The notes under the pieces: model-generated
What the model was told of the DNA's origin: nothing
Databases searched by the model: none
Seen by the model: the letters and a program-made list of their open reading frames with translations, nothing else
Made by a program: the position numbers and the translations under genes
Shown: in pieces, positions 5,400 through 61,069 of the stretch
How the letters are laid out: each line of letters starts with the position of its first letter
How positions within the stretch are numbered: the stretch's first letter is position 1
From: Azolla caroliniana
Lineage: Eukaryota; Plantae; Polypodiophyta
Length of the DNA stretch: 64,000 bases
NCBI GenBank assembly: GCA_043228905.1
Contig: JBHGNT010000011.1
Span: forward strand, 10,664,001 to 10,728,000
Direction: 5' to 3'

Positions 5400-6069
5400 T
5401 CCACCTTTCCTTGTAACGGGTGTAGCGTCCATGGGAACTATAGATTCCTTGAGCCCGACGATGACCTCCATCTCTCCGATTGTCATGGAATGTGTCGGTG
5501 CCGAGATATTGAAATGTGAATGTTATACCCAATATGCAGTCATTATGGGAGTAACAGATTCTTTGTTGACATTGAATCAACAGGCATTCAACCTAATGAA
5601 TACTTTACCGAATATTCTGGAACCAATGTTATGACCTGAAATATGCACTATTAGTTGGCCCTTGGATGGATGGTGGAAGGAGAGAATGCATAGTTGTTTG
5701 CCACAAGGATAAACCATCATTATTACACATAGTTTTGGAACTAGCAGTTATAGACAATAAGACTTTTTTTACCAAGGTTAAGAAAATGAGAGCATCTACA
5801 TGAAAACATGCTCTATCTTGCAAAGTTCTTAATGTTATCTCATACAATACACGACATTTCTTGCATATCCTTGAGAAAATTTTGTGTTCTCTCTATTTCA
5901 TCTTGATGAATAATCAATATTGATAAGGGCTTGTGGCTAAAAACCGTACATCAACATAAAAGAGTTATATCTAGTTGGAGTATGTTTAGAACGATTACAA
6001 GGTAACTCTAACAAGTGGAGACATTTCTCCCATTTTGTCAGCTTCTTTCCACATAGGCTTGAAGCGTAT
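5400..6069 (-). mobile_element. Degraded L1-type LINE RT fragment (host of the copia insertion)
   Basis: Residual motifs DNI, ALIFL, TASSK..CNNDG and TFQYLG appear in L1 RT order on the minus strand, with many stops. Confidence 0.45.
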
Positions 6070-6170
6070 TGTTAATAATTAGGTGATTAACTACGGGTTA
6101 ATTAGTACCTAAATATGTGATTAGTTGATAAGCGGAAGATTAAGTGATATGTGTGTCTATGTGTGTGAGA

Positions 6171-6221
<51 letters not shown>

Positions 6222-6324
6222 ACACACACACACACACACACTTATGAACAACACAAGATGGGGGATGAGTAAGTATATTAAATTAGCATTATCATCATCC
6301 CCCATCTTGTGTTATTCATAAGTG

Positions 6325-6398
<74 letters not shown>

Positions 6399-6475
6399 CA
6401 CTTAATCTTCCGCTTATCAACTAATCATATAATTAGGTACTAATTAACCCATAGTTAATCACCTAATTATTAACA
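6070..6475. repeat. Fold-back palindrome in the 5' LTR position of Copia-1
   Basis: Arm 6070-6268 is the reverse complement of 6295-6475 (TGTTAATAATTAGGTGATTAAC…GTTAATCACCTAATTATTAACA), with a 26-nt loop. The arms differ by a few substitutions and in microsatellite lengths. Confidence 0.95.
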
Positions 6476-6487
6476 TGGTATCAGAGC
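6476..6487 (+). promoter_or_regulatory. Primer-binding site, tRNA-iMet
   Basis: TGGTATCAGAGC directly after …TTAACA. Confidence 0.95.
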
Positions 6488-7090
6488 GTGTGGTTTAGAA
6501 AATCCACTAAGCCCACCCGACTCTGTGATTGTGTGTTCAAGACGCCGACGACAAAATCCAGCTATCAGCTACCGTAGTGCCGCTACGTAGCACGTGTACG
6601 TGATCGAAGGAAGAAAAGCAAAAGAAGAGAAGACACTACAATCAACATGAACACACAAATGGGTAGCTCGCTCCCTAGTGAAAAGCTAGACCGGAGCAAT
6701 TATTCATCTTGGGAGTACAAGATGACCCAATACCTCGTCAACCAAGGGTATTGGAGCTACCTCAACAACGCACAAGAAAATCGACCCGACCCAAAGAATG
6801 CCGACTACGCAACATGGGAGCAAGCGGCTAGTCGAGTCATGTATTGCTTGGCAACATGTGTCCAAGACCACATGCTTAGCAATATTCGAGACGCCAAAAC
6901 GCCTAAAGAAGCATGGGTGAACTTAAAGAAAATGTTCGCCGCCAACACAACTGCCCGAAAGCTTCAACTCCGACAAGAGTTGAACAACATTCGGCAAAAA
7001 GACATGTTTGTGTCGGACTACACCACCAAGATCAAGAGCATTTGTGACTCGCTTGGCTCCATCAAAATAAACGTCGACGAAGACGAGATG

Positions 7091-7710
7091 AATCGGAAAA
7101 ACAAACCGGTTTCATCCATATTGTAAGCATTGTTAGGATCATACTCATTGACTATAGCATAAAGCTTTTCCAAAGAAGCCAACAATTCAAGGTCATTTCT
7201 ATCAACTACCCCTCCTTCCCCATATAAATTAATAGTATTCAAACATTGACGATGACGAAATTTCCTAAACCAGCCCCAAGTTGCTTTGAAGTCATTGTCA
7301 GAAATATTCATTTCTGATGCCAATCATCGAGCCTTCTCCATAATAACGGATGGAGGAATGCAATTGACAATCGATGAGATGCATCAATCCTAGCATACAA
7401 GTATTCCTCTAATTCAGGATATGTTCCTTTTGATCCTCTAAAAGTTGTTTTTCTTGCATTGTGATCTTTTTGTTGAGCACGCAATCGTATCTCATCTTTC
7501 TTCTTGATCAAACTTCTAATACCGGATTCACTTACACCAAATTGTCTACCTATGTTACGAAGAGAAGGAAATGATGGTTGTTCCAATAACTCCAAATTTT
7601 GTAGCCTTTGTTCATCATTCAAACGAAGTCCAACACCTCGCTTATGGGTTAAATTCATCTCTGTAATATGCAATGCTAATTAGCTAAATTCACCTCAATA
7701 TTTCGTTCCC
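7091..7710 (-). pseudogene. Fragment of pogo/Tigger (CENP-B-like) transposase inserted in Copia-1 gag
   Basis: HTH-psq-like SLRNIGRQFGVSESGIRSLIK, CENP-B HTH (YPELEEYLY…FKATWGWFRKFRHR) and the DDE_1 start YNMDETGLFFR. Gag resumes as ICLGGL, collinear with Copia-2 (VDEDKMVQICLGGL). Confidence 0.85.
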
Positions 7711-8117
7711 TATATGCTTGGGTGGCCTCGCACAATGATTCGACTCGTTGAGGATGGCAATCTTGGCTAGGGAAAACCCTCCTTCATTCTTTGACCTCCA
7801 ATCAATGCTATTGGTCGAAGAGAACCACGTCCGAACCAAAAGAAAGACGTCGAAAGGACAAATGTTCTTCTCGAATTCGGACGGTGGCTGACGAGGAGGT
7901 CACAGCGGTAGAAGAGGTCAATTCGACCCATCACACGAAGGGAACTCAAACCTTCACGGAAGCCATCGAGGAACCTTCAGAAGAAGGGGGGAGCTTCCAC
8001 ACCGAACATGGTCGGCAAACGAGGCCCGCAACTTGCAATTATTGCGGCAAAATCGGCCACTACGAGTCAGAGTGTCGGAAAAAGAGAAGTGAGTCGACTT
8101 CAACAAGTCGACAACTC

Positions 8118-8261
8118 ACAAACTACGCATCGAACTCCAACTACGAAAATCGTAGTGGAATGTTCACGAATCACGCATCGAATTCCGACTACGACGATCA
8201 TAGTGAAATGTTTACAAAGTACGCCACAAATTCCGACTACGGCAACCGTGGTGGAATGTTC
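8118..8261 (+). repeat. Three 48-bp in-frame tandem repeats in the Copia-1 gag-protease linker
   Basis: TNYASNSNYENRSGMF / TNHASNSDYDDHSEMF / TKYATNSDYGNRGGMF. Confidence 0.8.
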
Positions 8262-8917
8262 GTAATGAGGCATAGAACGAACTCTATGACGGCCTCCAAC
8301 TCCACAAGCACCTCCAACTTGGAAGACGTGTGGTTCGTCAATTCCGGCGCCTCACATCACATGACATCTCACAAAGAGTGGTTTCGTGGTTTATGAACGC
8401 TGGATCGACCTGACTACATAGAGATGGGAGACGACACCACGCATCCCATTCGGCACATCGGAACCGTTCCATTCGGCAACGATGGCAAGAACAATTGCAT
8501 CAAGAATGTCTTGCATGTGCCCACGATAACGACGAATTTGGTCTCGGTAGGCCAAATCATGGAGCAAGGAATGGAAGTTCGCTTCAACAAAGAAAGATGC
8601 TTCATCGAGAAAGATGGCCAACTCATAGCGAAGGGGCGGAGAGACGGTCGAATGTTCATCCTTGATTCAAACGAGGTGAAATCGGCAATGTATGCTAAAG
8701 GTCTCAAAACTGAGACAAGTATCGAGTTGTGGCACAAGAGAATCAACCACATAAACTTCCAATGGCTCCGAGCAATGCAAACCAAGGGAGTCGTCATCGG
8801 ACTTCTAACATTCGAGTCAAAACGAGTTGACCGAGTATGCGAAGCGTGTCAACTCGGCAAACAACTTCGACTCCCATTCCCGAAGGAGAGCCACGCGAGC
8901 AAAGGCCTCCTCAACGT

Positions 8918-9705
8918 TGTCGTAGTGTATTTCGTACACTACGTGAAAAAGTAAAAATAATATAACCGATTTAATTACATATAAATAAATAAAATAATAT
9001 ATCAAGATATTTATCACGTACATAGGGCAAGATTCGAACCCTATACCTCCACATAGCCAAACCTCAACTTTACCATTATGCTACCTTATCTTTAATGTTC
9101 TACAAATAGATTTAATAACTATAAGTGCTTTATTTGCGCCTACCTTTATTAAAAGGTAAATCATGCATTTTTAGAGTGCGTGAATATTTTATAGAAAAAC
9201 GCAAGCAACCAAAAAGTGACTCATGCACATCTAGCGTGCATGAGCACTATATTTAGCAAATAAAAGCAAGGATTAGAAAAGCATCACATGCACATTTAGT
9301 GTGCATGAACATATTAGAAAAAAGCATGTAGCTATGCTTAGTCTCTCCCATCACTATATAAGGATGGGGAGCACAATGTAATAGGCGTGTGAAATATTTG
9401 GAAATTGGATATATTTCCGAAAACACCAACCGATTAATATAATCGTGGGATTCACGAAAATAATATAATCTATACTTGTGGGATTCACAAGTTTCTTATA
9501 TCTTTCTTTCAATCTAAATACATATTCTTATCTAAATATTGATTAATCGAATAAAATACACTCGTGGGATTCACGAAATTTCTATCTCTCTTTCTAATAA
9601 TCTATACATTACTAGCCTCATCTCATATTCTTCTTTCTCCTAGTCCAAAACCTCGGTGGTTCCCACCCGACTCACGCAAACGATCCGGAGCCGAAAGGCA
9701 CGACA
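8918..9705 (+). mobile_element. Solo LTR of the Trp-primed gypsy lineage, inserted in Copia-1 integrase
   Basis: TGTCGTAGTG…GGCACGACA. The 3' ~70 bp is near-identical to the LTRs at 44106 and 50843. TSD ACGT/ACGT (4 bp). Confidence 0.93.
9021..9090 (-). other. tRNA-like A-box/B-box cassette inside the gypsy solo LTR
   Basis: Minus strand reads TAGCATAATGGTA…GGAGGT…GGTTCGAATC, with tRNA-like spacing. Confidence 0.7.
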
Positions 9706-11027
9706 ACGTCATACACTTGGATGTATGGGGACCAGCTCAAACGCCGACGATCGGCGGATGCCGATACTACGTAACCTTCATCGACGACTACTCCCGCTAC
9801 ATGTGGATCTACCCGATGAAGAAGAAAAGCGAAGTGCTCTCCCACTTCCAAAAGCTCAAGCGTCAAGTCGAAAAAGAAACCGGTCGGCACATTCAATGCC
9901 TACGATCGGATGGAGGAAAGGAGTACTTCTTTGACGAATTCACCTCCTACCTCCAAAGTGAAGGCATTCAAAGAGAATTCTCGTGCCGACACACACCCCA
10001 ACAAAATGGAGTCGCCAAAAGGAAGAATCGACAAATGCTCGAGGTCGCACGTGCCATGATGCATGAAAAGCACATGCCGAATTTCTATTGGGTCGAAGCA
10101 GCATCCACGACCGTCTATCTCATGAATCGATGCACCACCAATGGACTCCATGAGCTAACTCCCTACGAGCTCCTTGTCGGAAGGAAGTTGATCCTGTCGC
10201 ACCTCAAGGTGTTTGAAAGCATTGCGAATGTACGCATCCCGAACCAACACCGAGGGAAGCCTGATGCGAAGTAAGAGGAATGTATCCTCATAGGATACTC
10301 ATCCGCGAAGAAGGCATACAAGTGCTACAACCCTTCTACCCGAGCGGTTCGAGTAAGTCAAGATGTAGTCTTCAACGAGTCCGCATCTTGGTACGCACCA
10401 GAGACAACTTCGACTCCGACTCTACTCGACCCGGAATCCACCGAACAAGAGGTAGAAGATGGAGATCGCTTCGAACACATGTTCGAAGAAAGTTCGATTA
10501 CGGCAAGGCCTAGTGGGCCACAAGAGCCCCCTCGCGGCCCAGGCACGTCGTGGCCAAGTACGAACTTGGACAAAGGCAAAGGTAAGATGCTCGAATACGA
10601 AGTCGACCACCCTGACGACAATGATTCGGATGGATCGGCTCCCTCATTAGACAGTGAGTTTGGTGTACCCATCATGCGTACACCCGGAGTAAAGAAGGCG
10701 CTCACATCGGCGAGCGAAAAACTTCGACACTCTTCTAGAGAGAAGAATCTCGTCACTCGGCTCAGCTACAATGAGTATATGGCCCATCATTACACCTTCG
10801 CAATGAAGGTAGCGGTTGAACAAGAGCCTGAGAGCTCTACAGAAGTAGTTTGTAACCCGTGATGGGTGAAAGCACTCGGCCAATTTTGCACAAGCCTTCA
10901 CCACAGGCTTGAGGGGGAGGAACCGAAACTGCCACAAAGAAGTCAACGCTGAAAGAAACAATACCGACCATCCAAAGCCGAAGCCGATTCAACCGAATCG
11001 ACGATCGTGCTTGAGCTTGAGGGGGCG

Positions 11028-11136
11028 TGTTGAGAGATCAAGCTCGTCAACATTTCTAACTAGATTCTATCTAGGTAACTACGAAGTTACACGGTTGACT
11101 AACTAACTAAACTAAGTTGAGCTTGATCTCTCAACA
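11028..11136. repeat. Fold-back palindrome in the 3' LTR position of Copia-1
   Basis: TGTTGAGAGATCAAGCTC…GAGCTTGATCTCTCAACA forms perfect 18-bp arms with an inner GTCAAC/GTTGAC pair, immediately after the PPT. It resembles the U3 start of the Copia-2 LTR (TGTTGAGCAAGCAAGCTCAACTAG). Confidence 0.92.
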
Positions 11137-11700: not shown

Positions 11701-14321
11701 TGCCTAATTGTGTTGATCATGTACATGTGAACCCAAAGAGGTTTCTATGATGTGTTTTTTCGATCATTAGAACATTGTATTGCTTTGATGGGAAAGGTAC
11801 CAATCCTTTTTTATAAAAGGTTAGTGCATATGATTAAATGGGTTCTTGTGGTCAATTAAAAAGATTTATTGAAATAACAATGTGCAAATTGGTAATTCTT
11901 GATTATAGTAATACATTTTTTTTAGAATTGTTACAAGAATTGATGCCTCAAATTGGTAAACTTTTGGTTGATCCCCATTTTAATTATTTAAAGAAATGTA
12001 GATTTTGCATGTCATGGGACACAAGTTGCAAGCTTCATAAGGAGAATTTTGCAAGACATTGTTAAAAATGTGGTCAATTGGGGCATTTTATGGTTATCAT
12101 GGCAAACCATACCAAAAAAATATATGTTAGAGAAAAAGATAACGAATATGTTTAGAATAATATTATCTTATCAATGGTTTATACGGTCATGGATGAGGGA
12201 CATGTCATGGGTTAGAGTGAGATTCTTAAGTTCAAGGTCATGGAGGTGTTGGTGAGGATAGTAGAGTACATACTAGTGTAGAACCAAATGTTGTTGAAGA
12301 ACAATAGTGGCATTAAGTGCAATATAATATAAAAGGGAAGGGTGTTGCCAAACAAAGGGACAGAATAAGTACTAATGGTAATGCATTACCAAAAGGTAAT
12401 GGGAGAATGAAGGAGGGGTTTAAGAGAAATTTGTGGCAAAAACAAGTGTGAAATTAGAGATTGTCTAACTAATTAAAGTTTGATTCTTTAGAAGGGTGAT
12501 GCAACTCAATTTAATAAAGGATTTCATACTCATGGGGCTAGACAACAAAATTCTATGATTGATGTAGTACACACAAATCCTTATGCAGTTCTTAAACAAG
12601 TAGTTACTACATTTATGCATACGTTTGCTCGTAAAGAGCAAATTCTTACTAAAGGTGTTCAGTAAGCGTGGTATCATGGAATGTGCGAGGGGCATCTTCT
12701 CCTCATAAGAAATATATATCATATAAAAAATATTTATTAACGAATGGGATATTTTATGTGTAGTTGGCCATAAGTTTCATGATTTAGTAAGATCTCTGAT
12801 ACATTTGCATGGATATATCCACATATTATGCAAGCCAATTATCACATCATTATTTGGGTGTAGCCATGATTATTCATGATTTGTTTTGTCCACATATAGT
12901 GCATATATGATCCATAGTGATCAAAGTCAAAACCTTTCAATGTTTTGATATGATTTGTAAGAACTTATGCACCCAACATTGCTAATCAACGCATCGAGTT
13001 GAGTTTTCTATGTATCCAAGGTTATCAATGGGTCGGACTGGTTTGTTGATGGGTGATTTTAACATGTGATTGCTGAGTTCTTTTGAACAAGTTGTTTGGG
13101 ACAAGCTTGCATTAGAGGTTTTGAAGTTGGATGTATGGAAATGGTTGCATCAAGATAAGTGTGGATTTATATTTTAAGTCTATATAATATACAGAAACAC
13201 AAAGTAGGTTGGACCAAATGTATGTTATACACGATGAGTCCTTTTTGCCAGAGATGCTTAATATGTCAATTGTGCAAGAGGTTGTATCCTCAAGATCATT
13301 TTTCCATAGGTTTCGTGTTTAATAAATATGTTGTATATATGTACAAAACATTGTTTGATAGGGTCCCTTTGAAGTTTAACTCTTATTTATTGTTTCATTC
13401 CTTGTTTGATGCTTGTGTGTGACAAATGTTCTATAGGTTTTCAGAACATGTTAATTCAAGGGGATGGCATGCATGGGATACAATATTTAAAAACATCGAG
13501 ATATTTAAAAACAGACAGGACACCTAGCTAAGGAGTGTCCTTGTAAGATTGGAAAGGGAAGCTCGGGACCACGACCCTCGGGCAAAGTCGGGACAACCAA
13601 GGGTGAAGAAGCTCCTTGGCTACCCGTTAAGAAGAAGGGGAAACTTGGAGGCCTAGGTGCCTCCTCTCCCGCCCTTTTTCATGACCACCCCCTTGAAAGA
13701 AGTCCTGCCACCTTGTCACCAGCAAGCGTGGACGAGCAACCCTTGAAACGAGTAAAGATCCTCTCCGGGAGTGCCAAGGCACCCGACCTACAGGTGAGAG
13801 CTACCAACAGATTTACACTTCTTCAAGGGTTAGGGGATGGCGACCCAGCAGCGCTGGCAGCAATGTTGTCCCCGTGCGACTCCTCACGCCTTCCCCCGCG
13901 GGAGCCCGAACTCGTGTTCTCCACCCCGATGGAGATGCAACCCCAACTTGTACCGTCCACCCCGGAAGAGAAGTTGGCACAGCCCCCCCCTCCCGTTGGA
14001 ACGTGAATGTGGTAGTGGCCTCAGATTAGTGAAATCGTGGATCCGGACGGGCAAGCTCAAGGACAAAGAAAAGGGTAAGATAGGAAGACCAACACCTGGT
14101 TTGGCAACGACTCTGTTAGATAGAAGGGTGCAAGTTGTGCCACCGCTTCGGAGCACAAATGTATCGCGGGATCTATTTGAAGCGGGTCGGGAACGACCGG
14201 CTGAGAATCTTGTAGGGGATTTGCAGCCTGCAGTGGAGACCATACCCCCCGAAACAGGTGTTAGTTTGCCCCATGACATGGGGATCGGCCCGAACATGGG
14301 CGCCAACGTCACCGTTTTCGG

Positions 14322-17300
14322 ATGAGGATCCTAACGTGGAATGTACAGGGCCTTGGTGGAGGCCGACAACACCAAGAGTGTAGAAGACTTCAGGAGGAGT
14401 TGAATCCCCTTAATATAGGGGGCCATATTGACATATTGCTTTTGCAGGAACACCACCTCTCGCAAGAGCGAACTCAGAGCTTAGTAAACCCCTTGTCGGG
14501 TGGGTGGACCACATGGTGGTCGGCTGCGCAGGGTGACCTCCACCGAAGAGGAGGGGTCTGCATCTTGATCAGCGATAAGGCCCGATACGAAGTAACATCA
14601 TCTGGCACGCTGGTGGAGGGTCGGGCCTTATACGTGCTTTTGAAATGGAATCGCCTACAGATTGGGGTGCTAAACATTTATGCCCCTAACTCAGCCCCCG
14701 AGAGAGCAATCTTTTGGAGGATGCTAGCAACAACATTACCTAATGTCGAGGCTTGGGTAATGGCAGGTGATTTCAACATGACTGAACACATGGGAGATAG
14801 GAAAGGAGGGACCTAGAGGCCTATTTATGGTGCGGAGCTGGATTCATGGGCTTTCCTAATTGGCAAAATCGGGGTGAAGGATACATGGGGCTCTTCCCTT
14901 AGGCGAAGCTCACATTCGCTGCACTTTTCTAGAGCCGCCGGGAATGCTAGGGGCGGTAGTCTTGCACGGCTAGACCGCATATACATCAGCTCATCCCTCG
15001 AAGAGCTCGGGGGCTCCTTTGCTATCTTGGCAGGCCTTACCTTTTCAGATCATCAGCCGGTGAGACTAGACCTTAACCCACCCAACGATAGCAAGGGCAG
15101 TCTCAATGTAAAGATCCCCATAAAGATCATGAAGAGTGAAGAGGTGAAGGCCGGTTTACAGAGTATATGGCAGGACACCATGGGCAGTAAATCAGCCAGC
15201 GAAGATCTGCAGAAAAAATTGGCCCTCTCCTCCTCCTTTTTACAACAAGAGACCAAGCGCGCCCTCCAACAGGTTAGAGCCATTGAAACAAAATTAAGGA
15301 AGGCCGTTGCGCTGTTACAGGTAGACCCTGGTTGCAAATGGTCTAGAGCTAAACTAGAGGAAGCAAAGATGAAGGTACATGAAAGGACTTTGGAGAAGAA
15401 CCGAATGTTGTTTCGAAGAAACGCAGCATGGTGGGCTAGAAAAGACGACAAGGCCAACCGACATTTCTTTCACTACAAGGCACCCAAGGGTGGTGGTGGA
15501 CGTATACACGGGCTGCGAAAACCAGACGGCTCAATAACGGAGGACAAGACTGAGGTTCTGGAAATGGCAACACAATACTATCGTGACCTCCTCGCACCTA
15601 TGCATGTGCGGCAAAACTCGGAGTTGGCTGATCGAGTGATGTCTTGCATTCACCCCAAGGTAACCCAAGAGATGGAAGTTGTGCTCGATAGTCCCATTTC
15701 TCGTTTAGAGCTCTCGGAGGCACTTAGGGGATTGCGAAGGGGTGCATGCTCCGGTCCCGATGGTCTCTCACGAGATTTCTTCGAGATTCATTGGGAATGT
15801 GTTATCCCGTCCTTGGAAGCCGGGTTCCAAGAGATTTGGTCCTCAGGAAAGATGCCGATTGGTCTGGCTGAGGGGATGATATATCTCATCCCCAAATCCC
15901 AAGAGCGAAGCCTAGAGTTGCGCCAATGGCGTCCAATCACAATCCTTAACACGGCATACAAGATACTCGCTAAAGTCCTAGCTCAGTGATTAGCAAGCTT
16001 CTTACCGGACATCATACACGACAATCAAACTGGGTTTGTCAAGAACAGGTGTATCTTTGATAATGTGTTGCTTCTTTGGGAAGCTATGGCATTGGCCGGT
16101 CGCTCCGTATCGAGCTCGACTATTCTGATGCTAGACTTCGAGAAGGCCTACGATAGGGTGTTATGGCCCTTTTTGGAAAATGTGATGAGAGCTTTGGGCC
16201 TACCTCAAAAATGGAGGAATTGCACTTCTGCACTCTATCGGACAGCTACGAGTAGCGTGCTGATGGCTGGATCTAGGGGACCCGCCTTCCAACTACAACG
16301 CTCAGTGAGGCAAGGTTGTCCCCTAGCCCCATATCTCTATCTCTTTATAACCGAGGCTTTCTCCGCCTACTTACAAGCACCAACTAGCGGGCTGCGGGGA
16401 TTGCCCATCCCCAATGCGACTGAAGATTTGCTGTTATCTGAATATGCCGACGATACGGTTCTTTTCTTGCAAGGTGATGAGGAGAATTTACAACGGGCTG
16501 AACATCTTGTCGAGGACTTTTGTCAGGCGGCTGGTGCCAAGATCAATTGGAATAAAACCCAAGGTCTATGGTTCAGCGAACAGGAGACACCAAGATGGCA
16601 ACCCCATGCCGATTTTACGTGGGTCCCTAGTGGGACGACTTTCAAGTACCTTGGATTTACGATGGGGAGGTCAATCCCCAAGGGAGCGCAATTGGCCCAC
16701 GTACAAGCCAAAATAAGTAAGAAGCTGAACCAGTGGAGTAGATCAAAATTGTCCTTCGCTGGTAGGGTCCTTGTGGCGAACCAAGTGCTGCTCGCTACCA
16801 TGTGGCACTCAGTCTCATGCTGGATTATGGACCCTGCAGGTTTGCACGCGATTAAGGCTGCCATTAGGGGGTTTATATGGTCAGGTAAGGACAACCCACG
16901 GGCTGCCGCCAGAGTCTCATGGTGTTGGTTAACGCAACCGCGGGTGTTATACATTTTAGGGTTAGGGTTAAGGACGATGATGATTATCAATGACAAAGAT
17001 AGACATGGCGTAATAGCGAAGATAATGGAGAGTATGATGGTAAGAGAGATTGGCATGAAGATGTTGAGAATCGTTGAGAAGCATTGTGGGGTGGGGGGTG
17101 GTGCCTAGAATGGCTCCACCCCCCTCCCAAGGGGGTTCAACGTTGAGGGAGAGAGATAGGAAGAGAGATGACAAGAGAGAGAGAGAGAGATGATTCCCTT
17201 TTCATTCATTCCCCATAAGGGGGTTAAATAGTACAAGAGGGGGTAGATACAAAGGGGTGTAAGCCCCCTAGAGCATTCATACTGGACACTCACTCATACC

Positions 17301-19140
17301 TCCTCGTATCCATCCACATGCACACACGTGTGCATGTGTTCACATATGTATCGACTCACAATTACATTTATGCCCCCTACACATACACAACATTATGATA
17401 ACATTCGACCCTCGCTCATCACACTTGACTCTCCGTACATCTCGTACGAGGTAACAACGGGCCAAAGGGGGGCTTGGCCTCATAGACCCCTTAATGCAGA
17501 GTCGTGCATTGCTGGCTAAAATGGTGGTTCGCTGCCTCCTGCCAGGTAAGGGGTGCTGGAAGGTACTTCTTCGCAACAGGCTGCAAGTAGGGACTCCCAA
17601 GTATGGTAGGCCTTGGCCCGACTCCTTGAATTGGTGCTGCACGAGTGGAGTCCCACCCAGGCTGGCTTGCCATCCGGAGGATAGGGTCACGAACTCCATC
17701 TTGCGGGCATGGTGCCATATACGACAGCATTTGGTCAAGCACACCCCGGAGACATTGACCGAATGGACTAGACAGCCACTATTCTGGAATCCTCATGTGC
17801 AAACGAATGACAACGCGATGCTAGGGCAACTTAAGGGCCTAGCATGGGGAAAGTTGGCACAAACAGGCCTCCTATCTATAGACGATTGGAGACGCATGGC
17901 TGATTCAGGAAGAGCCCAAGAGGACCTTTTCCCTCCCCTCAAGGGAGCTACGAAAATGCGGAGACTGATAGCTGAGGCAGTTGACAGGGTTCTGATGGGG
18001 GAGGCGAGAGAACATGCATGGTTCGGTCTCTTTGACGAGGCTGGAATGGTCAAGTCGCTAAAGGGCATGAGCGGATCGGGGAGTGATACAGTTTTTGGGG
18101 ACAGCCAGAGCAGCGGCTCTTGGCACCCAATCCGAGTGGTGGCACAGATTGATAACATCTGGAAGACAGACCCGGATGTTGCTAAGGTGGAACCCCATTG
18201 GAGGTTAAGGGTATACGGTTGTCGTCCCCTTGTCGATCTGGATTGGGACCCCGGGGATTTCAGATGGAAACATGACGATAGACTCCACCACTTCTTCGGT
18301 TACACCACTAAATTGGGTCGGACTTTGCAACTGCAGCGAGGCGGCCCCCTTCGCAACGGCTAGCGAACATTGGGCATCCCCGATGAGGCGCTCATTGCCT
18401 TTTGGAAGGGTCTTTGGCGTCTCCACATGCATGAAAAGATCAAGCTCTTTTGGTGGCAGATCGGTCATAATGTGGTGCCCGTTGGCGAATGGTTAGATAA
18501 ACGTGGTGGCCCGTTAGGCTGCCCACTGTGCTCTCTACCTATTGAGTCTCTGAGACATTGTTTGTGGGATTGCCCTCAAGCTCAAAAGGTATGGGATAGA
18601 GTGACTCGCCTCCTTGTGGCATGTGACGTTGAAGGAACAGCCTCGTGGAGCGCTGCGGCATGGATTGATCACTCGGTCGAAGGGTGGACGGACGCCGTCA
18701 ATGCGGATAGTTGGTGCTATGTATGCACGAGAGGCAAAATCGTCAAGATCCATTTTGAAAGAGGCTTGCAGCCCGCATCCCCTAGGTTTCCGGAAATCTG
18801 GATGTTGATCGCAGGTTTCACCTTGTGGTATATATGGAAAGCGCGTTGCCTCAAGGTCTTCCAAGGTACGGTACGACCCTCGGAGGAAGTGATCATGGAC
18901 ATATGGTTCGCGCTTATCAGCTGCCTACGAGGGCAACTAGAAGAGGTTTGCAGCCACTCCAACGACGTGACCACTGCCCGTTTGCGCTTTTGGCAGAAAT
19001 GGCGGAACACACCTATGGTGATGCAAGGCGGGAGTGGCCCGAGGTGGAACTACCAGCCCCCACGTTGGTTGTTTCCTATTCACCTGCCACCCTCTCTTCG
19101 GTGTAGGCCCCAAGAGCCGACTCGTACGAGGCCACATTGA
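14322..19140 (+). pseudogene. LINE ORF2 (APE endonuclease, RT, zf-RVT) with in-frame stops and a solo-LTR insertion
   Basis: Motifs ILTWNVQG, LQEHH, YAPN, GDFN, RLDRIY, SDH, WRPITILN, LDFEKAYD, QGCPLAP, YADD, CPLC…HCLWDC. Stops at 14814, 15987 and 18361. Confidence 0.92.
16945..17456. mobile_element. Solo LTR inserted in LINE ORF2
   Basis: TGTTA…TAACA ends and TSD GCGGG/ACGGG. Removing it restores QPRAKGGLGL. Confidence 0.85.
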
Positions 19141-40446: not shown

Positions 40447-40855
40447 TGTTGAGCAAGCAAGCTCAACTAGATCCGGATCGGTTGAATAAGCCTGAGCCAA
40501 ATCGGCATCCGGAAGGATGAACCGAATCAGTATCTGGAAACAACCGTCCGGATCAAGGAGCCGGATTGGAGAGCCGGATTCGAGCGGGAACCGGAAGCCT
40601 AGTAGTAGCCTAGACTACTAGGTAATCATTGTCTCGTAGTTAGTGTCAGTTGCATGTATGAGCATTGAAGTACTTGTCAGTCCTTTATGAACTTGTATAA
40701 ATAGTGATGTTTAGCACGTTGTATGTACAAAGTTTTATGTTCTGCTCTCTCTGTCTCCTTTATGTTTGAAGCTTTTCCATTAAATCTTCATCTCATTTTC
40801 TATGCTATCCGGGTGAGCCGGTTCTGTCTGACGCTTCCACGCATTAACATTCACA
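40447..40855 (+). repeat. Copia-2 5' LTR (conventional, non-palindromic)
   Basis: TGTTGAG…ATTCACA with TATAAATA at about 40697, followed by the iMet PBS. Confidence 0.88.
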
Positions 40856-41776
40856 TGGTATCAGAGCGCGAGGGTTGAGAACCTCTGCAACCGATACTTG
40901 CTTTCGTAGACGAACCTTAGAACTCGGAAACTAGACGAACCTTAGAACCCGGAAACAACAAACAGAGAGAATATATGGACAGAGGAATGGCGAGTTCACT
41001 TCCAACAGAGAAGCTCGATCGGAGCAACTACACGTCTTGGTCATATAAAATGCACCAATACCTGCTGGGGCATGGATATTGGAGCTTCGTGGAAGGAACA
41101 AATGAAGTAGCACCAGAGCCGTCACACAAAGACTTCCCGGTATGGGAGCAAGGAGCGAGTTGGGTACTGTACTGTCTCACGTTCAGTGTGCATGATCAAA
41201 TGCTCAGCTACATCAAGGATGCAAAGATGCCGAAGGAGGCCTGGGAAAATCTACGGAAGATTTTTGCCGCAAGTACCACAACTCGGAAGTTGTAGCTCCG
41301 GCAAGAGCTGAACAACATCCAACAAAGAGACATGCATGTCGGTTATGGATTACACCACCAAGATAAAGGAGATTTGTGACGCACTCGGGTCCATCAACGT
41401 GACGGTGGACGAAGACAAGATGGTACAAATCTGCCTCGGTGGTCTAGTGTAGGGGTACGGGCCAATCCGGACAACAATCTGCAGCTGGGAGAAACCACCA
41501 TCTTTCTTCGACTTGCAATCGATGCTGATGGTCAAAGAAAACCACGCGAGTGGGTCAAGGACCACTCAATCGAACGTTTGGATGCTATACACGGAGACAG
41601 ATCGGCCCCATGGTCGTGGTGGACGAGGTGGGTTAGCACGCAATGGAGGTGGCCGTCTAGAGTAGGACCGGAGGCACAGAGGAGGTGCCGACAGTAGTTC
41701 CGGACCCTCCACAAGCAGGGGGAGTCAAAGCGACACCGGGAGCCAGCAAGGAAAGGCCGACATGGAATGTTGGTAC

Positions 41777-42553
41777 CATAGTACGTAAAATTCGTGTTCG
41801 TCAGGCTTATCATTCGTTTTCCTACGTTGGAAAACGAACACGAATGATATTAAAAAGTTCGTGTGTTTTTTTTTTCCTTTTTTTTCATTTTTTCCTTTTT
41901 TTTTCGTTTTTTCCCTCTTTCTCCCTCTTCTTCTCTGCACGTAACGTTACGCTCTCCTCTCCTCTCCCACCTAGCCTCCAACGATCTGCATAGTGCACAC
42001 TGCTTACCAAGTTTCAACAACTCACGACATTTAGGTATGATTAGAATTTAGGTTTAATAATCGCTATTAGGGTTTAAATTTCCAAAACGAAATTTCAGAA
42101 ATTTCTCTAATGAAATTTCTGAAATTTTAAAGATGAAATGTCTGAAATTTCAAAGATTTCATGTCTGAAATTTCCAAAATGAAATTTCTATGATGAAATT
42201 TCTGAAATTTCAGACATGAAATCTCTAAATTTTCATGGCTGAAATTTCTGAAATTTCAGAGATGATCAGACATGAAATTTCTGAAATTTCAGAGATTTCA
42301 TGTCTAATCATCTCTGAAATTTCAGACATTTCATGGCTGAAATTTCTGAAATTTTTGCAATTTCTGAAATTTCTGAAATGTTTTTTTTTTGCAATTTTTA
42401 AATTTTTTTTACCTTGAAAAAATATTTATCTTATAGTAAATAGTTTAACCAAAAGTATGGTATTTATCATTCTTCAAGGGTGTTTACCCTTCTCAAATGA
42501 TTGAATCATTCTTGAACACAAATGCACGAATGGTGCGCATGGTTCATACTATG
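41777..42553 (+). mobile_element. hAT-type MITE with internal GAAATTTC(T/A) minisatellite, inserted in the Copia-2 zinc knuckle
   Basis: TIR CATAGTA…TACTATG and a 7-8 bp TSD (G)TTGGTAC. Removing it restores ECWYCGKKGH. Confidence 0.9.
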
Positions 42554-44190
42554 TTGGTACTGTGGCAAAAAGGGCCACAGGGAAAGCGAGTGCTGGAAGA
42601 AGCGTGCCGATTCGGACAAATCCGAACCCGGCAAAACTGGTCGGGAGAACTGGCAAAGCTCGCACTACGCGGAAGGATCCGGAACTGGGAAAACCGGTAA
42701 AGGGCCAGCCTTCGTGATGAAACACAAGGATAACTCGATGAAGAAGACTACTTCCAAATCGGAGGAAGTATGGTACGTTGATTCCGGAACATCCAACCAC
42801 ATGACAAGCCATGAAGAGTGGTTCTCCTTTTTGGAGAAGCTGGAACAATCAGGGATTGTCGAAATTGGAGACGACACCCCTCACCTGATTGTGCATGTCG
42901 GAGAAGTCCCTTTAAGCCATGTCGGACAAAAGGGGAAGCAGATGAACGTACTACACGTTCCGACTATCACAAAGAACCTGGTGTCAGTTGGGAAAATCGT
43001 CGACCAGGGGATGCCAGTGCGTTTTACGCACCTAGGGTGCTTCATCGAGGAAGAGGGCTGGATAATTGCGCAAGGGCGCAAAGACGGGAGGATGTTCATC
43101 CTCAACACTAATGATGTCGGCACCGCTATGTTTGCAAATGGGCAGAAGGTCGAATTGGACATCGACCTGTGGCACAAGCGGATCAGCCACATCACTTATC
43201 GGAGGCTTCAAGACCTGCAATTGAAATAAGTCGTTTTCGGTTTGCCGAAATTTAGTGGCCAGAAGGCTGAAATTTGTGAAGCCTGCCAACTTGGGAAGCA
43301 ACATCGGCTTCCATTTCCCACCGATCGAAACCGGAGCCATAACAAGCTCGATTTAATCCATTTGGATGTATGGGGACCGACACAAAACGTTAGTCTTGGT
43401 GGGAGTCAGTATTTTGTCTCCTTCATCGACGACTACAGCCGATACACATGGATCTACCTCATCAAGAGGAAGAGTGAAGTCTTCAAGTGTTTCCGGAAAC
43501 TTCAAAGCTTGGTTGAATGGGAAACGGAGAGGAAGATCAAGTGCTTGCGGTCGGATGGCGGGAAAGAATACTTTTCCGGCCAATTCAATAGTTATCTGCA
43601 GCAGAACGGAATTCAGAGAGAATTTAGCTGCAGGTACACATTGGAGCAAAACGGTGTGGCCGAAAGAAAGAACCGGTCGATTATCGACGTGGCAAGGGCA
43701 ATGCTGGAGGAGAAGAGTATGCCCCATTTCTTTTGGGCCGAGGTGGTCCGGACGACTGTCTACATCCAAAACTGGATCGGTGACAAGGTGTCAACACATG
43801 AGTTGTATTTCGGGCGAAAGCCGAATTTGAGACACCTTCGAATATTCGGTAGCATAGCATATGTGCATGTACCGGATGAGAAGCGGAGGAAGCTGGATCT
43901 GAAGTCGGAGAAATGCATTCTAGTCAGTTACTCACATGAGCAAAAGGGGCATAAGTGCTTTAACCCCCGGACTAAGCAAATCCGAGTAAGCCGAGATGTT
44001 GAGTTTGATGAGACGACATCATGGTACTCCTTATTGACTCTAACTCCCAAACCGGGTGATACCAAGTTGCGCCGGTCTTCCCGCCTGAAGAACCCCGTTA
44101 CACGGTGTCGTAGTGTAGGTTGCACACTATGTGGAAATTATATTTTTGTCCCTCCGGATAGAGAATGGAGTGCTCGGTGAGAACCGGAAG

Positions 44191-44285
44191 AAAACGGCAT
44201 ACCGGCAAGGAGGAAAAACGGCATACCGGCAAGGAGGGAAAACGGCATACCGGCAAGGAAGAAAACGGCATACCGGCAAGGAAGA
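44191..44285 (+). repeat. 23-24 bp tandem repeat in U3 (4 units in 5' LTR, 5 units in 3' LTR at about 50928-51044)
   Basis: Unit AAAACGGCATACCGGCAAGGA(G/A)G. Confidence 0.9.
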
Positions 44286-44332
44286 GCCGGATAAAGAGAC
44301 ATAAATGTAAAAAGAAAGGAAATACTCACTAC

Positions 44333-44404
44333 TGCGCAAGGCGTGATTCAAACTCTGCACCTCCACGTTGACAAACCCCAACCTTACCATTACATTAACT
44401 TATC
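44333..44404 (-). other. tRNA-like A-box/B-box cassette in Gypsy-A LTR (second copy at about 51093-51164)
   Basis: Minus strand reads TAATGTAATGGTAAGG…TTGTCAA…GGAGGTGCAGAGTTTGAATC, followed by a T5 tract about 25 nt later. Confidence 0.65.
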
Positions 44405-44946
44405 TTAAGTGTTTTAAATATAGATTTAATACGTATAAGACCTTTATTTATGCATACCTTTATTAAAAGGTAAATCGTGTATTTTTTTAATATATGAAAA
44501 AGAAAAACACGAGACACTAAAAATAACTCATGCACATCTAGCGTGCATGAGCCCTATACTTAGGAAATAAAAAAGCATCACATGCACATTTTAGTGGACA
44601 TGAACACTTTTTGTAAAAGAAAAAAAAAGCATGAAGCCATGCTTAGCTCTTCCTTCCTTATATAAGGAGGAGAGAAATATATAAAGGGTTGTTGATTATT
44701 TGGATTAAGGATTAATCAATACAAAAATTATTCGTGGGATTCACGATTTATACATCTACTTCTCTCTTAACACCCTAAGTACCAATTAATATAGTATACT
44801 CGTGTGATTCACGAGTTTCTTATCTTTCTCTTCGCTATTTATTCATAATTAATCTTTATCTCACGAACTTCTTTCTCCTAGTCCAAGACCTCTGTGGTTC
44901 CCACCCGACTCACGCAACGATCCGGAGCCGAAAGGCACGACACAGT

Positions 44947-44963
44947 TGGTGAACCCGACGTGA
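44947..44963 (+). promoter_or_regulatory. Primer-binding site complementary to cytosolic tRNA-Trp
   Basis: TGGTGAACCCGACGTGA is the reverse complement of the plant tRNA-Trp 3' end (TCACGTCGGGTTCACCA). It lies 4 nt after the LTR. Confidence 0.85.
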
Positions 44964-44980
44964 AAACGGGTGGCAAGGAG

Positions 44981-47020
44981 ATGGAGGCTCAACAAGCTAA
45001 CAATATGATGGCGATGTTCGAACGGATGCTTCAAGAACAACGCACGATGTCGGAGATTTCGGCATCAGTAGAGCGGCTCGTGCAACGCAACGGGCAATTT
45101 AATGGTAAGGATGTGTCGCGATATTTGCAGGACTACAAGGCGGAGATGCTCCGGTGCCGGGCTTCGGAAGGACTGCAAGTGACATCCTTTAACCGGGTGG
45201 CGACCGACGGGCTTCAAGGGAGTATCCACGGGTTGCAACAACAAAATCCGACGTGGGAAGCATTCGAAGAGGCGTTAAAGACCACGTTTGCCATCGAGGA
45301 CTCCTCCAAGGCAACGCGGAGGGGATTCGAGGATTGGGTGGAAACGTCAGGTAAGGGGCTGAAGGTCCTCGAAGTGTTTTCGACATTCGAAAGTCGGTTC
45401 GGGAGGTTGTCCGCGAGAGATCAAACTATTCTTGCACCGGACAAAGTCATCATGTTTTTGCGAGTTGTGGACGTCCGGGACCGGAAAGATCTCGGAGTGC
45501 TTCTTGAGGACACGACCACCGAAAGCGGCCTCACCGAAACATGGGAAAGCGTGCGGGATATCGTCGCGCGGTACATGAAGAGGGGGCAATGGCTTGCCAA
45601 CGAAGAAAAGAGGGTTTCGGAACCGATTCCGAAACCGAGAATGGGACTGGAAGACCATCAACCGAGGGCTCGGGAGATTACGGCCGAGAAGGGAGTCGAT
45701 GCGTCTACGGTGGAGCAGCTGCTGAAGGAGATGGAGAATCTAAAGATCGCGATGGTGAAGAAGTCGGATGACCGCCCCACAAGCTCCAAATATACGGATC
45801 GACGGTGCATATGGTGCGATAGCGCCGAACACGATCGGAGGGATTGCGACGACCATAAGGAGGCGCTACGACGGGATCTCATCTACTACGAGGGAAACCG
45901 GATTCATTCGATGGACTCTCGGAAGCCACTCCGACCGAACTTCCGGAAAGGCGGCATGAAGAAGGTGCTCGAGGAGGAGTTAGCGGCAAGAAGCAACTAT
46001 GCGACAACCGCGGGAATATGTGTCGGGGAGTCATCGGGAGCGAAGGCGTCTTTCTGGCCGGAGGTGCTAGGAAACACCGAGAAAACCGACTCCAACGATA
46101 TCTGAAACACCGCGGAAGGCGTCCGGGAAGCTACGGGATGGGAGTGCCCTGTCGACAAGAATAGCATATACGCCCTGTGTCAATTACATGAGGTGTATGT
46201 GGACGAGAAATGACGGCGCACGGAGGATGCGGCCGGACCATCGAAGATACCGGAAAGCTGGAACTCCGGAGGTAAGGGAAAAGAAAAGGCGACTCCGGCA
46301 TTCAAGCTCGCCTCGGACATAGAACAACAAACCGACTTGAAAAGAGTGTTCGAGGAAAGAATCTTGGATAGCCGGGTAGATTTTTCGTTGCGGGAACTAC
46401 TCGGAATAGCGAAGAAGGAGTTTCACGATCTTCTCGTGGATCTCGTGAAAAGGAAGAGACAAAGTACGGAGGAAAATGCTCCAAGGGTGAATGCAAATAC
46501 CGTTTCAACGAACGACACCGAAGTGGAAGGCGAAATTCCGAACTCCCACTATACAAGGCCACACTGGGCCCGTGCGACTACGGAGACTCCGGTCCGAATC
46601 GGCAACATCAAAGAACCCGTGCTAGCATTGATTGATCACGGATCGGAGATCAACTTGATGTCCAAGGAGTTCTACCGAAAGGGGAAGTGGCCTATAAACA
46701 CCAACCATGGATGGAAGATTCGGGCAGCCACGAAAACGACAGAAGACCTATTTGCGGCTTGTCCGGATGTGACGGTAAAGATCGGGGATGTCGAAATTGA
46801 CCAAAATTTCTTTGTGCAGGATGAGGTTTCACATTCTGTCATCCTCGGCCAACCCTTTATCACGGCTTCACGGATGGAGACGAAGGTGCTCGATAGTGGT
46901 GCGGCTTTTGCGCGAATTCGGAGCCAAAACGGAGGGAAATCCGTCCAATTCCTAACGGTGCCGGCAAATCACGAAAGGAACAAGAGGGAACTCTTGCCCC
47001 AAGTGAGAATGGATTTTTAA
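44981..47020 (+). pseudogene. Gypsy-A gag-protease with two in-frame TGA stops
   Basis: FNGKDVSRYL, zinc knuckle CIWCDSAEHDRRDC and protease ALIDHGSEIN are all in one frame. TGA stops at 46103 and 46211. Confidence 0.88.
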
Positions 47021-47063
47021 AGCGGACTGTTGCGGAGTGGGGAAGTGATAGTCCGAGAAGCCC
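47011..47063 (+). promoter_or_regulatory. Putative -1 ribosomal frameshift signal between protease and pol
   Basis: G_GAT_TTT precedes the TAA, followed by stem GGACTGTTGC/GTGATAGTCC. The -1 frame is open into the ORF at 47155. Confidence 0.7.
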
Positions 47064-47113
47064 TGATACCCCACACAGGAAGAAAACTCTCGGAGCAAAA
47101 CAAGTACGAATCG

Positions 47114-47574
47114 GCCCGGATGGGGCATCTACGTACACGGCCGTAACCGGAGGAATGAAGAAACAATACCGACAAGTGGAGGATAAGTTACGGTCGGCAT
47201 CAATAATAAAAGAAGACGAAGAAATCGTGGGAGTGATCGAGGAAGTGTTCTATGGGAATACACTACAACGGCTTGAAGAGCTTGCGGAAGATAAAAGCCA
47301 AGGGAACCGGGTAGTCCCGGTGGAATCGGTCGAGATGTACGTAGATGCCCGGATGGGGCATCTACGTACACGGCCGTAACCGGAGGAATGAAGAAACAAT
47401 ACCGACAAGTGGAGGATAAGTTACGGTCGGCATCAATAATAAAAGAAGACGAAGAAATCGTGGGAGTGATCGAGGAAGTGTTCTATGGGAATACACTACA
47501 ACGGCTTGAAGAGCTTGCGGAAGATAAAAGCCAAGGGAACCGGGTAGTCCCGGTGGAATCGGTCGAGATGTACG
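47114..47574 (+). repeat. 233-bp tandem duplication that frameshifts the pol N-terminus
   Basis: 47114-47341 is repeated from 47347. ORFs 47155 and 47388 begin with identical peptides in different frames. Confidence 0.95.
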
Positions 47575-50500: not shown

Positions 50501-50855
50501 CGCGAAAAGGTGGTTCGGGCCGTACGAGGTTCGGAAGGTCTTCGACAACGGGACGTACCGACTGTCCGAGTTGGATGGAACAATACTACGAGTGCCTATA
50601 GCCGGGAAGCGGGTGAAGATTTTCAAGAAGCGGACCGACGACAAACCTTATGTGATCCAAGTCGAGGCCGACAACGAGGAGCAATCGGACGAAGACCACA
50701 ATGATGCGGGAAGCGAAGAAAGTGGATTACAACTCATAATCGACATAAGGGGAGAATCGGAGGAAGCTTCGGATGAAGACGGATACGAAGAATCAAGAAC
50801 TTCGGCACATACCGGAGGATGTGCGGGTTTGGAGGGGGCGAGTGTCGTAGTGTAG
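47388..50855 (+). CDS. Gypsy-A pol (RT, RNaseH, integrase; no chromodomain)
   Basis: 1155-aa open frame with DLYSGYDQ, LPQGATNS, PFLDD, VDTSPTGIG, HHCC zinc finger, ADRGE, NPEANGKIER and WFGPY. Confidence 0.92.
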   Translation: MKKQYRQVEDKLRSASIIKEDEEIVGVIEEVFYGNTLQRLEELAEDKSQGNRVVPVESVEMYEIVAKMGPDALRKEEAMVSTKYKTVEKKVKPAAGPLPADSEQKRKEVSGDPTLRKTVDIGHAFTDETRKKLRIGGGGFLLQEEEKRFREMLEQHGKAFAFTSREIGCIDPKIVEPMVIFTIDHVPWNLKPIPVPRAHIPKVIDLLKEKVAMGILEPSSAPYSNRWFTVPKKNGSLRFIQDLQPVNKVTIRNSGVGPIVDEFAEAFAGRAIYSIGDLYSGYDQFQLAVESRDITTMRTPIGLVRMCTLPQGATNSVAHMMNAMNKVLRDCIPEITMPFLDDIPMKGCAVEEKDETMDDRGCRKFVVDHIHDCEKVLRKLEDVHLTLSGEKSAFGQEEILVVGHLCGPYGRRPSPTKIDAIQAMKEVCESTSEVRRFLGACAFYHIWIPHYAHIADPLYHLLRKGKKFEWKPEHTKAMRKLKKTLWRAESLKKPSYERPIIVTVDTSPTGIGWVINQADSDGSRYPIRFGAKVLNERQRGYAQVKRELWGVVSAIKSDRDYLIGAEVVIETDCLPILGMMRCCTIPDVAMLRWIAYVKSLNPEVRHISGKDNAVADMLSRARFEDDITESDNEEVSEDYFTSEHICRVNVIREFREEEYEGETLMIGKMLQEVEDSTNDKERRAEIRRKKRQVQKFFLENGLIWRTPKRPDGIPLRVVGTKEQRNRIMSEFHESDWAGHRGTWATFVKIKQRYWWKNMYKDVAEFTESCEKCQVYSGVRHRDELHPTFSPTINFKWMVDIVAMPTGIGQKKYLVLAREDLTNQVEGRALRRKTCAAVCQFLLEEVFCRYGCVGQVIADRGELDSDKARGFFAKHGVRLTLTTAYNPEANGKIERGHSPIVKALAKACDGRVKDWPQMLPYALWADRTTHSSVTGYMPAELMTGQAPVMPTETAIATWTILPWKEEMSREELLAVRIRQLEGRPKDVAEASRRQQEARFRNKSRFDTKHRLRPRRIEEGDWVIVYDSSLDHQHTTMRKFAKRWFGPYEVRKVFDNGTYRLSELDGTILRVPIAGKRVKIFKKRTDDKPYVIQVEADNEEQSDEDHNDAGSEESGLQLIIDIRGESEEASDEDGYEESRTSAHTGGCAGLEGASVVV

Positions 50856-60989: not shown

Positions 60990-61069
60990 ACCCGTTCATA
61001 CCTCGATTTTTAATGATGTTTTTTTTTTTTTTTTTTTTTTTTTTCAGTCTTTAATGACGGTGTGTGACC

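What the first reader, a model, noticed from the sequence alone, without database searches (positions are those of the whole stretch)
6070..11136. Copia element with two different fold-back palindromes instead of direct-repeat LTRs
Seen: the segment before the PBS (6070-6475) is a ~200-bp-arm palindrome made of LTR 3'-end (U5-side) sequence. The segment after the PPT (11028-11136) is a different palindrome of U3-start sequence that resembles the U3 start of the Copia-2 LTR. The two ends do not match each other, yet the unit ends TG…CA and has a 5-bp TSD (CGTAT/CATAT). The layout is rc(U5)-U5-PBS…PPT-U3-rc(U3). Known: LTR elements get direct repeats from two strand transfers. Inference: either both strong-stop DNAs folded back instead of strand-transferring and integrase still accepted the product, or the interior of an oppositely oriented element was inverted with breakpoints in both LTRs. 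If recurrent, this would be an inverted-end replication mode that standard LTR finders miss. The arms differ by substitutions and microsatellite lengths, which argues against a read-chimera artefact.
Basis: partly seen in the sequence, partly recalled or inferred. Interest (0 to 1): 0.85.

Follow-up and report, generated by a model that had tools for sequence, protein, structure and literature searches.

The report
Copia copy with two fold-back ends
One dead copy of a plant jumping gene has two folded-back, mirror-image ends instead of the usual matching end-repeats; it is likely a one-off copying accident that the element's integrase still inserted, not a new way of replicating, because the other copies seen have normal ends.

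Summary
The layout is in the sequence: TSD, rc(LTR ~258-end), LTR ~290-end, PBS, gag-PR-INT (no RT), PPT, LTR 1-18, rc(LTR 1-91), TSD. Relatives have ordinary 434-458 bp direct LTRs; 0 of 18 informative LTR starts and 0 of 5 PPT junctions fold back, so this is not a family replication mode. Both ends are fold-back joints at 5-6 nt inverted repeats 30-42 nt apart. LTR positions ~92-257, with the TATA box, are missing from both ends, which rules out a clean reciprocal inversion. The left fold lies 33-34 nt after the only TATAWA match, the predicted transcription start, where minus-strand strong-stop DNA ends. Best reading (0.5): a self-primed minus strong-stop hairpin plus a second switch in U3 gave a DNA with swapped but intact ends that integrase inserted. 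A post-insertion fork template switch leaves the same joints (0.28). The outer junctions appear in contigs of three studies; the fold centres were not recovered in independent data. The copy lacks a promoter and is predicted dead. Unchecked scan notes report two other inverted-end insertions in this genome.

The parts
6065..6069 (+). left target-site duplication CGTAT
   Evidence: unique flank contigs
6070..6299 (-). left outer arm, 230 nt = family LTR ~258 to end (predicted R+U5) in reverse; supplies the U5 terminus
   Evidence: host-run contigs leave the window at 6299 and go on as normal LTR
6295..6299 (.). left fold joint, 5-nt inverted microhomology TCATC/GATGA, partners about 30 nt apart
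6295..6475 (+). left inner arm, 181 nt = family LTR ~290 to end
6476..6487 (+). primer-binding site TGGTATCAGAGC (tRNA-iMet type; label recalled)
   Evidence: same junction in L035, L048
6578..7090 (+). gag, N-terminal part
   Evidence: Retrotran_gag_2 E 1.1e-17
7091..7713 (-). later insertion of about 622 nt in gag, no TSD seen; decayed transposase-like reading frame
   Evidence: joint 7090-7713 in 4 of 4 runs; six-frame translation; family label by eye only
8034..8075 (+). CCHC zinc knuckle of gag
   Evidence: translation
8330..8917 (+). protease and GAG-pre-integrase domains, interrupted by a stop
   Evidence: Pol_BBD, gag_pre-integrs
8918..9705 (+). nested Gypsy solo LTR with 4-bp TSD
9706..10860 (+). 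integrase core and SH3-like domain, with stops
   Evidence: rve, SH3_retrovirus
10861..11018 (+). short 3' region in place of RT/RNase H, with an upstream PPT-like motif at 10911
   Evidence: same RT-less layout in L035, L010, L038, L049
11019..11027 (+). polypurine tract (3' part)
11028..11045 (+). right inner arm = family LTR 1-18
11046..11051 (.). right fold joint GTCAAC/GTTGAC (family LTR 38-43 and 86-91, 42 nt apart); implies a 19-nt loss from the inner arm
   Evidence: the 19-nt loss is inferred
11046..11136 (-). right outer arm, 91 nt = family LTR 1-91 in reverse; supplies the U3 terminus
   Evidence: 2 differences in 91 nt to L017
11137..11141 (+). right target-site duplication CATAT

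Best explanation
This single RT-less Copia copy has two fold-back ends made of its own family's LTR, and it is likely an aberrant reverse-transcription product that integrase inserted. Shown: the arm map, the short inverted repeats at both joints, the loss of LTR ~92-257, intact U5 and U3 termini in swapped positions, and the TSD. Inferred steps: (1) tRNA-primed minus strong-stop DNA reached the RNA 5' end (predicted at LTR ~258), its 3' TCATC paired with GATGA about 30 nt back, and it copied itself through U5 and the tRNA 3' end, giving a hairpin with a PBS tail; (2) that tail annealed to a normally made minus strand from the second RNA in the particle, in place of plus strong-stop DNA, and both strands extended; (3) on entering U3 the growing plus strand switched at GTCAAC (38-43) onto GTTGAC (86-91) of the displaced PPT-primed strand (or that strand folded back at 91) and copied back to the U3 start; (4) integrase joined the U5 end on the left and the U3 end on the right, and host repair trimmed the leftover branch. 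RT would have come in trans. With no TATA box and no direct R repeat the copy is predicted unable to replicate again.
For: Family LTRs are direct and 434-458 bp (8 complete LTRs). The left outer arm starts 33-34 nt after the only TATAWA match in 8 of 8 LTRs, at a T/G step; Arabidopsis TATA hexamers peak at -35 and starts follow a YR rule (PMC1832190, passages). A simulated two-break inversion with free deletions puts that break in a 16-nt start window in 4.2% of 2,000,000 draws, and gives both joints this tight with the outer arm longer in 2.6%. The 91-nt U3 strand folds with its 3' end paired at 38-43 (-12.2 kcal/mol). Both rearrangements lie inside LTR sequence and both termini are exact. 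Arm divergence (3.7%, about 1.8% per arm) is close to the 2 of 91 differences between the U3 arm and its nearest relative, compatible with arms as old as the insertion. Self-priming of minus strong-stop DNA is known in vitro for HIV-1 (PMC6088434, passages); integrated template-switch products are described in grasses (PMC1950507, abstract).
Against: The transcription start is predicted, not measured. The left hairpin is marginal (-0.3 kcal/mol), and 5-nt inverted matches within 15-80 nt exist at 39-46 of 355-378 LTR positions, so the microhomology itself is not rare. Two rare events must meet in one particle. In HIV-1, self-primed products are called dead ends and were not detected in endogenous reactions. 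Joints at 5-6 bp inverted repeats 40-80 bp apart are also the signature of replication-fork template switching (PMC10766186, passages). With either arm allowed to be longer the simulated chance rises to 10%, and the window sizes were chosen after seeing the data. The interior differs from relatives at 91 of 959 sites (9.5%), more than the arms differ from each other; this may reflect CpG content (79 CG in 1138 nt against 1 in 112) and lineage, but could also mean younger arms. The right joint needs an extra 19-nt loss. No contig across the left fold was shown.
Confidence: 0.5

Rival explanations
1. A normal element inserted in minus orientation; later, replication or repair template switches at the two short inverted repeats (ODIRA-like dog-bone, or two broken ends that each folded back), resolved by LTR-to-LTR recombination, inverted the interior and removed both LTR middles.
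For: Joint geometry matches the described ODIRA signature. The outer junctions and TSD are what a normal minus-orientation insertion would leave. The locus has had other rearrangements (622-nt insert without TSD). Arms are less diverged than the interior is from relatives.
Against: Needs an origin or double break inside 4.5 kb, both switches inside LTRs and two out-of-register crossovers over 180 and 91 bp. It does not predict the left fold at the predicted start (4.2% by chance).
Confidence: 0.28
2. A plus-orientation element inserted into a minus-orientation solo LTR of the same subfamily, and the spacers of the two resulting inverted repeats were later deleted.
For: The family is very abundant (summed depth about 43,000 against 40 in unique flank, X1) and nesting is common in this window. 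Host-run copies include near-identical ones.
Against: Three events. The arms differ by 3 of 79 nt in the terminal block against 10-15 to each of 8 family LTRs, and share long CT tracts. No inner TSD or LTR-middle remnant.
Confidence: 0.1
3. Assembly or library chimera: the true locus is a normal minus-orientation element whose interior was flipped.
For: Only the outer junctions are seen in independent runs; no shown piece bridges the left fold.
Against: Arms differ by 4 substitutions, microsatellite make-up and a 19-nt gap, whereas fold-back chimeras copy one arm (own knowledge). Two such joints at natural inverted repeats with no gap are needed. Logan contigs drop rare variants, and no locus-specific interior contig was shown anywhere in the element.
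Confidence: 0.07
4. A self-perpetuating inverted-end replication mode of this family.
For: Both termini are exact and a TSD is present.
Against: 0 of 18 LTR starts, 0 of 5 PPT junctions and 0 of 2 PBS junctions in related loci fold back; host-run contigs continue as normal LTR at 6299 (8, 9 and 6 contigs); the copy has lost the TATA region.
Confidence: 0.05

Closest known systems
Ty1/copia LTR retrotransposons, non-autonomous RT-less subfamily (relatives L035, L010, L038, L049)
   Same: PBS, gag-PR-INT order, PPT, TG...CA termini, 5-bp TSD; 81-88% identical interior and the same RT-less layout. Nearest named integrase hits are from the fern Adiantum nelumboides, 59% at best.
   Different: No direct-repeat LTRs; U5 and U3 termini swapped; LTR middle with the TATA box lost.
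[quoted passage not shown]
   Same: 3' end at the R start folds on a nearby inverted repeat and is extended, giving rc(R-U5)-U5.
   Different: Described in vitro and as a dead end; here it would have been rescued through the PBS, joined to a second fold and integrated. The hairpin here is 5 bp, not a TAR-size stem.
Template-switch complex LTR insertions in Triticeae (PMC1950507, abstract read)
   Same: Aberrant switch during reverse transcription followed by insertion as one unit.
   Different: Those fuse two parent elements; the abstract mentions no inverted, fold-back ends.
ODIRA inverted amplification (PMC10766186, passages read)
   Same: Two palindromic joints at 5-6 bp inverted repeats with short spacers.
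   Different: ODIRA gives an inverted triplication around an origin; here no direct copies flank the inverted interior, so two further recombinations are needed.
Autointegration inversion circles of SISYPHUS/ATCOPIA52 (PMC7197481, passages read; supplements not seen)
   Same: Copia cDNA with an inverted portion made inside the particle.
   Different: Those are circles with LTR ends joined to internal sites and non-functional; here the LTR ends join host DNA and the joints are not at LTR termini.
DIRS-type elements with inverted terminal repeats (recalled, no call)
   Same: Retroelement with inverted ends.
   Different: Tyrosine recombinase, no integrase-type TSD; here the two ends are unrelated to each other and there is a DDE integrase and a TSD.

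Membership tests
Ty1/copia LTR retrotransposon | gag-PR-INT before RT-RH | tested here: met
   gag, PR, INT in this order; RT-RH absent, as in relatives
Ty1/copia LTR retrotransposon | PBS after the 5' end and PPT before the 3' end | tested here: met
Ty1/copia LTR retrotransposon | TG...CA termini with 5-bp TSD | tested here: met
   4 of 5 match
Ty1/copia LTR retrotransposon | two LTRs in direct repeat | tested here: not met
   not met in this copy; met in relatives L035 and L048. It is a rearranged derivative, not an intact member
Self-primed minus strong-stop product | outer arm ends at the RNA 5' end | tested here: inconclusive
   33-34 nt after the TATA match; no RNA run on record among the 20 holders
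Self-primed minus strong-stop product | 3' end pairs with an upstream site of the same strand | tested here: met
   5-nt match, weak energy
ODIRA-type rearrangement | joints at 5-6 bp inverted repeats 40-80 bp apart | tested here: met
   6 bp / 42 nt on the right; 5 bp / about 30 nt on the left, a little shorter
ODIRA-type rearrangement | inverted triplication containing an origin | tested here: not met
   no direct copies of the interior beside it; origin not testable
Autointegration inversion | LTR termini joined to internal element sequence | tested here: not met
   termini join host flanks
DIRS-type | tyrosine recombinase, ends inverted to each other | tested here: not met
   rve integrase found, no recombinase hit among 5 ORFs scanned; ends unrelated
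Recurrent inverted-end replication mode | several copies with independent TSDs | tested here: inconclusive
   none among 26 family loci or shown contigs; the whole genome was not available

The most novel reading that the evidence does not exclude
Self-primed minus strong-stop DNA is not a dead end: in this plant lineage it is rescued through the PBS, and fold-back Copia cDNAs with swapped ends are integrated again and again, forming an overlooked class of palindrome-ended insertions whose fold marks the transcription start and which direct-repeat LTR finders cannot see.
Probability: 0.2. Interest if true: 0.7.

Novelty: new variant of a known kind. Interest (0 to 1): 0.42.

Why it matters
If the reverse-transcription origin holds, this is a genomic fossil of a side reaction known from HIV-1 test-tube work and called a dead end there, and it shows that a Copia integrase accepts correct ends in swapped, palindromic context. 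Such insertions escape LTR finders and put 200-bp hairpins into the genome. The idea is cheap to test by a genome-wide scan. As a single dead copy with an unresolved origin its weight is moderate.

Tried and rejected
Whole-genome search for more copies: no genome is held. Copia-2 as reference LTR: only the first 22 nt align; rejected. Clean reciprocal inversion: would keep all LTR sequence (2L = 515 nt, L about 257), but L is 434-458 and ~92-257 is absent from the window. Fold at TCAAC (17-21) on the right: leaves 3 unexplained bases; the 38-43 fold with a 19-nt loss is preferred but not shown. Left fold centre in Logan contigs: 379 laid, 32 shown, none crosses 6299/6300, no joints; this is no evidence of absence. 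Left-joint 17-mer in 55 loci: 0. Of 55 metagenome loci, 29 were dropped as chance or unrelated matches. Self-inverted hits in 2 of 26 family loci were an AT-rich non-LTR stretch (L034) and the PPT-LTR start of another family at a contig end (L048). None of 5 solo-like LTR loci has matching TSDs, so these short-read contigs may be collapsed or chimeric; I use them for LTR structure only. Pfam scan of the gag insert did not run, so its label is by eye. Paper searches for a described case: 0 papers; 4 listed; 2; 5; 10; no listing described an integrated element with two fold-back ends; subscription papers are not covered. One search gave no lineage name, and with no RT the Copia lineage was not assigned. 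PMC5651808 (abstract) did not bear on it. Runs with small shares were not used.
Full report
Observation. The window holds at 6070-11136 a Copia-type unit: TG...CA termini, flanks CGTAT and CATAT, PBS at 6476, gag, protease and integrase domains, and a PPT ending at 11027. The 406 nt before the PBS form an interrupted palindrome; the 109 nt after the PPT form a second one with an 18-nt perfect arm; the two ends do not align with each other. A 4-of-5 flank match occurs in 1.8% of random pairs. There is no RT or RNase H. Two later insertions lie inside: about 622 nt in gag, skipped by contigs in 4 of 4 runs, and a Gypsy solo LTR at 8918-9705.

The family. No genome is held, so I scanned metagenome contigs for the 18-nt LTR start: 55 loci, of which 26 belong to the family and 29 were dropped. 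Eight complete LTRs are 434-458 bp. L035 and L048 have two LTRs in direct orientation around PBS...PPT, and L035, L010, L038 and L049 lack RT in the same way, so the parent is a non-autonomous subfamily with ordinary ends. Of 28 LTR starts, 18 reach position 110 and 0 of 18 fold back at 91; 0 of 5 PPT junctions and 0 of 2 PBS junctions are rearranged. These contigs may be collapsed (0 of 5 solo-like LTRs have matching TSDs), but contigs from the host's own runs leave the window at 6299 and at 11057 with the continuation seen in these LTRs. The nearest named integrase hits are from a fern.

Map of the ends. Left: 6070-6299 is LTR ~258-end in reverse (230 nt) and 6295-6475 is LTR ~290-end forward (181 nt); they overlap in TCATC/GATGA. 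Right: 11028-11045 is LTR 1-18 and 11046-11136 is LTR 1-91 in reverse; the family has GTCAAC at 38-43 and GTTGAC at 86-91, so the simplest reading is a fold at this pair and a 19-nt loss from the inner arm (the loss is inferred). At both ends the outer arm is longer and carries the loop. LTR ~92-257 is absent from the window. A reciprocal inversion would keep it, so that version is rejected.

Is it real? Single-copy-depth contigs of three studies run from both flanks into the termini (30-32 nt left, 22-25 nt right). They carry 0-9 differences, so more than one haplotype has the insertion. This confirms the outer junctions only, which a normal minus-orientation element would share. The left fold centre was not bridged by any of 32 shown pieces of 379 laid; such contigs drop rare variants, so this is neutral for one copy but gives no sign of a high-copy joint. 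The arms differ by 4 substitutions in 109 nt, by microsatellite make-up and by the 19-nt gap, which a fold-back chimera would not give (own knowledge). I put an artefact at 0.07.

How it most likely arose. In 8 of 8 LTRs there is one TATAWA match at 223-225, and the left outer arm starts 33-34 nt after it at a T/G step. Plant TATA hexamers peak at -35 and starts follow a YR rule (PMC1832190, passages). So the outer arm has the predicted extent of minus strong-stop DNA, with a 3' end able to pair 30 nt back. Self-priming of this intermediate is known for HIV-1 in vitro and is called a dead end (PMC6088434, passages). A hairpin extended through the tRNA 3' end would have a PBS tail and could replace plus strong-stop DNA in the second transfer (inference). 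The right fold is not at a strong stop; it needs a switch onto the displaced PPT-primed strand or a premature fold of it, whose 91-nt form folds with its 3' end paired (-12.2 kcal/mol). The product has a U5 end and a U3 end in swapped positions, both exact, and a TSD. A simulation of two-break inversions with free deletions gives joints this tight with longer outer arms in 2.6% and a break in a 16-nt start window in 4.2% of draws; the windows were set after seeing the data.

What speaks against it. The start is not measured, the left hairpin is marginal (-0.3 kcal/mol) and 5-nt inverted matches exist at 11-13% of LTR positions. Two rare events are needed. Joints at 5-6 bp inverted repeats 40-80 bp apart are the described mark of fork template switching (PMC10766186, passages); a dog-bone or double fold-back repair followed by LTR recombination gives the same sequence. 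Dating does not decide: per-arm divergence (about 1.8%) matches the 2 of 91 differences of the U3 arm to L017, but the CpG-rich interior differs from agreeing relatives at 91 of 959 sites. I give reverse transcription plus integration 0.5, chromosomal switching 0.28, nested insertion with spacer loss 0.1, artefact 0.07 and a self-perpetuating mode 0.05.

Comparison. It works like a template-switch product inserted as one unit (PMC1950507, abstract) and differs from autointegration inversion circles, whose LTR ends join internal sites (PMC7197481, passages; its supplementary figure and table of structural variants were not seen and may hold similar reads). It derives from a Copia family but fails the direct-LTR test. 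Five searches listed no description of an integrated element with two fold-back ends. The scan's own unchecked notes report two other inverted-end insertions elsewhere in this genome, and no look-alike of this stretch; I treat them as leads only.

Verdict. A real and unusual structure, most likely one dead copy recording a reverse-transcription accident. It is not shown to recur and is not a replication mode of the family. Interest 0.42; new variant of a known kind.

Noticed in passing
window 8918-9705 and 44106-51702: A Gypsy family with 4-bp TSDs (ACGT, ACGG) sits inside both Copia elements; the full copy has 97% identical LTRs and holds a further copy in reverse.
   Followed up: partly
window 7091-7713: Insert in gag without a TSD; the minus-strand frames read like a decayed pogo/Tc5-type transposase (label recalled, by eye); repeated in the genome.
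   Followed up: partly
window 40447-51990: Copia-2: 409-bp 5' LTR, PBS at 40856, integrase, RT start resuming after the Gypsy insertion at 51706; no second LTR in the window.
   Followed up: partly
window 42076-42380: AT-rich array of short units in direct and inverted order inside an insert in Copia-2.
   Followed up: no
window 47114-47578: Tandem duplication of 233 bp at 99.6% identity inside the Gypsy pol; recent or an assembly slip.
   Followed up: no
L032, reverse strand 1390-1560: The first ~85 nt of the family LTR are duplicated in tandem, ending near the internal TGTTGA that resembles the LTR start and is the right fold site of this finding.
   Followed up: partly
L037:1218-1662: The 5 bp on either side of this LTR are reverse complements (GAAAC, GTTTC) instead of a direct TSD.
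   Followed up: no
window 8116-8259: Three 48-bp tandem units between the zinc knuckle and the protease; L035 has fewer.
   Followed up: no
window 13509-19140: Decayed LINE with endonuclease, RT and zf-RVT domains.
   Followed up: no
window 58056-60995, minus strand: 979-codon open frame with no Pfam hit.
   Followed up: no
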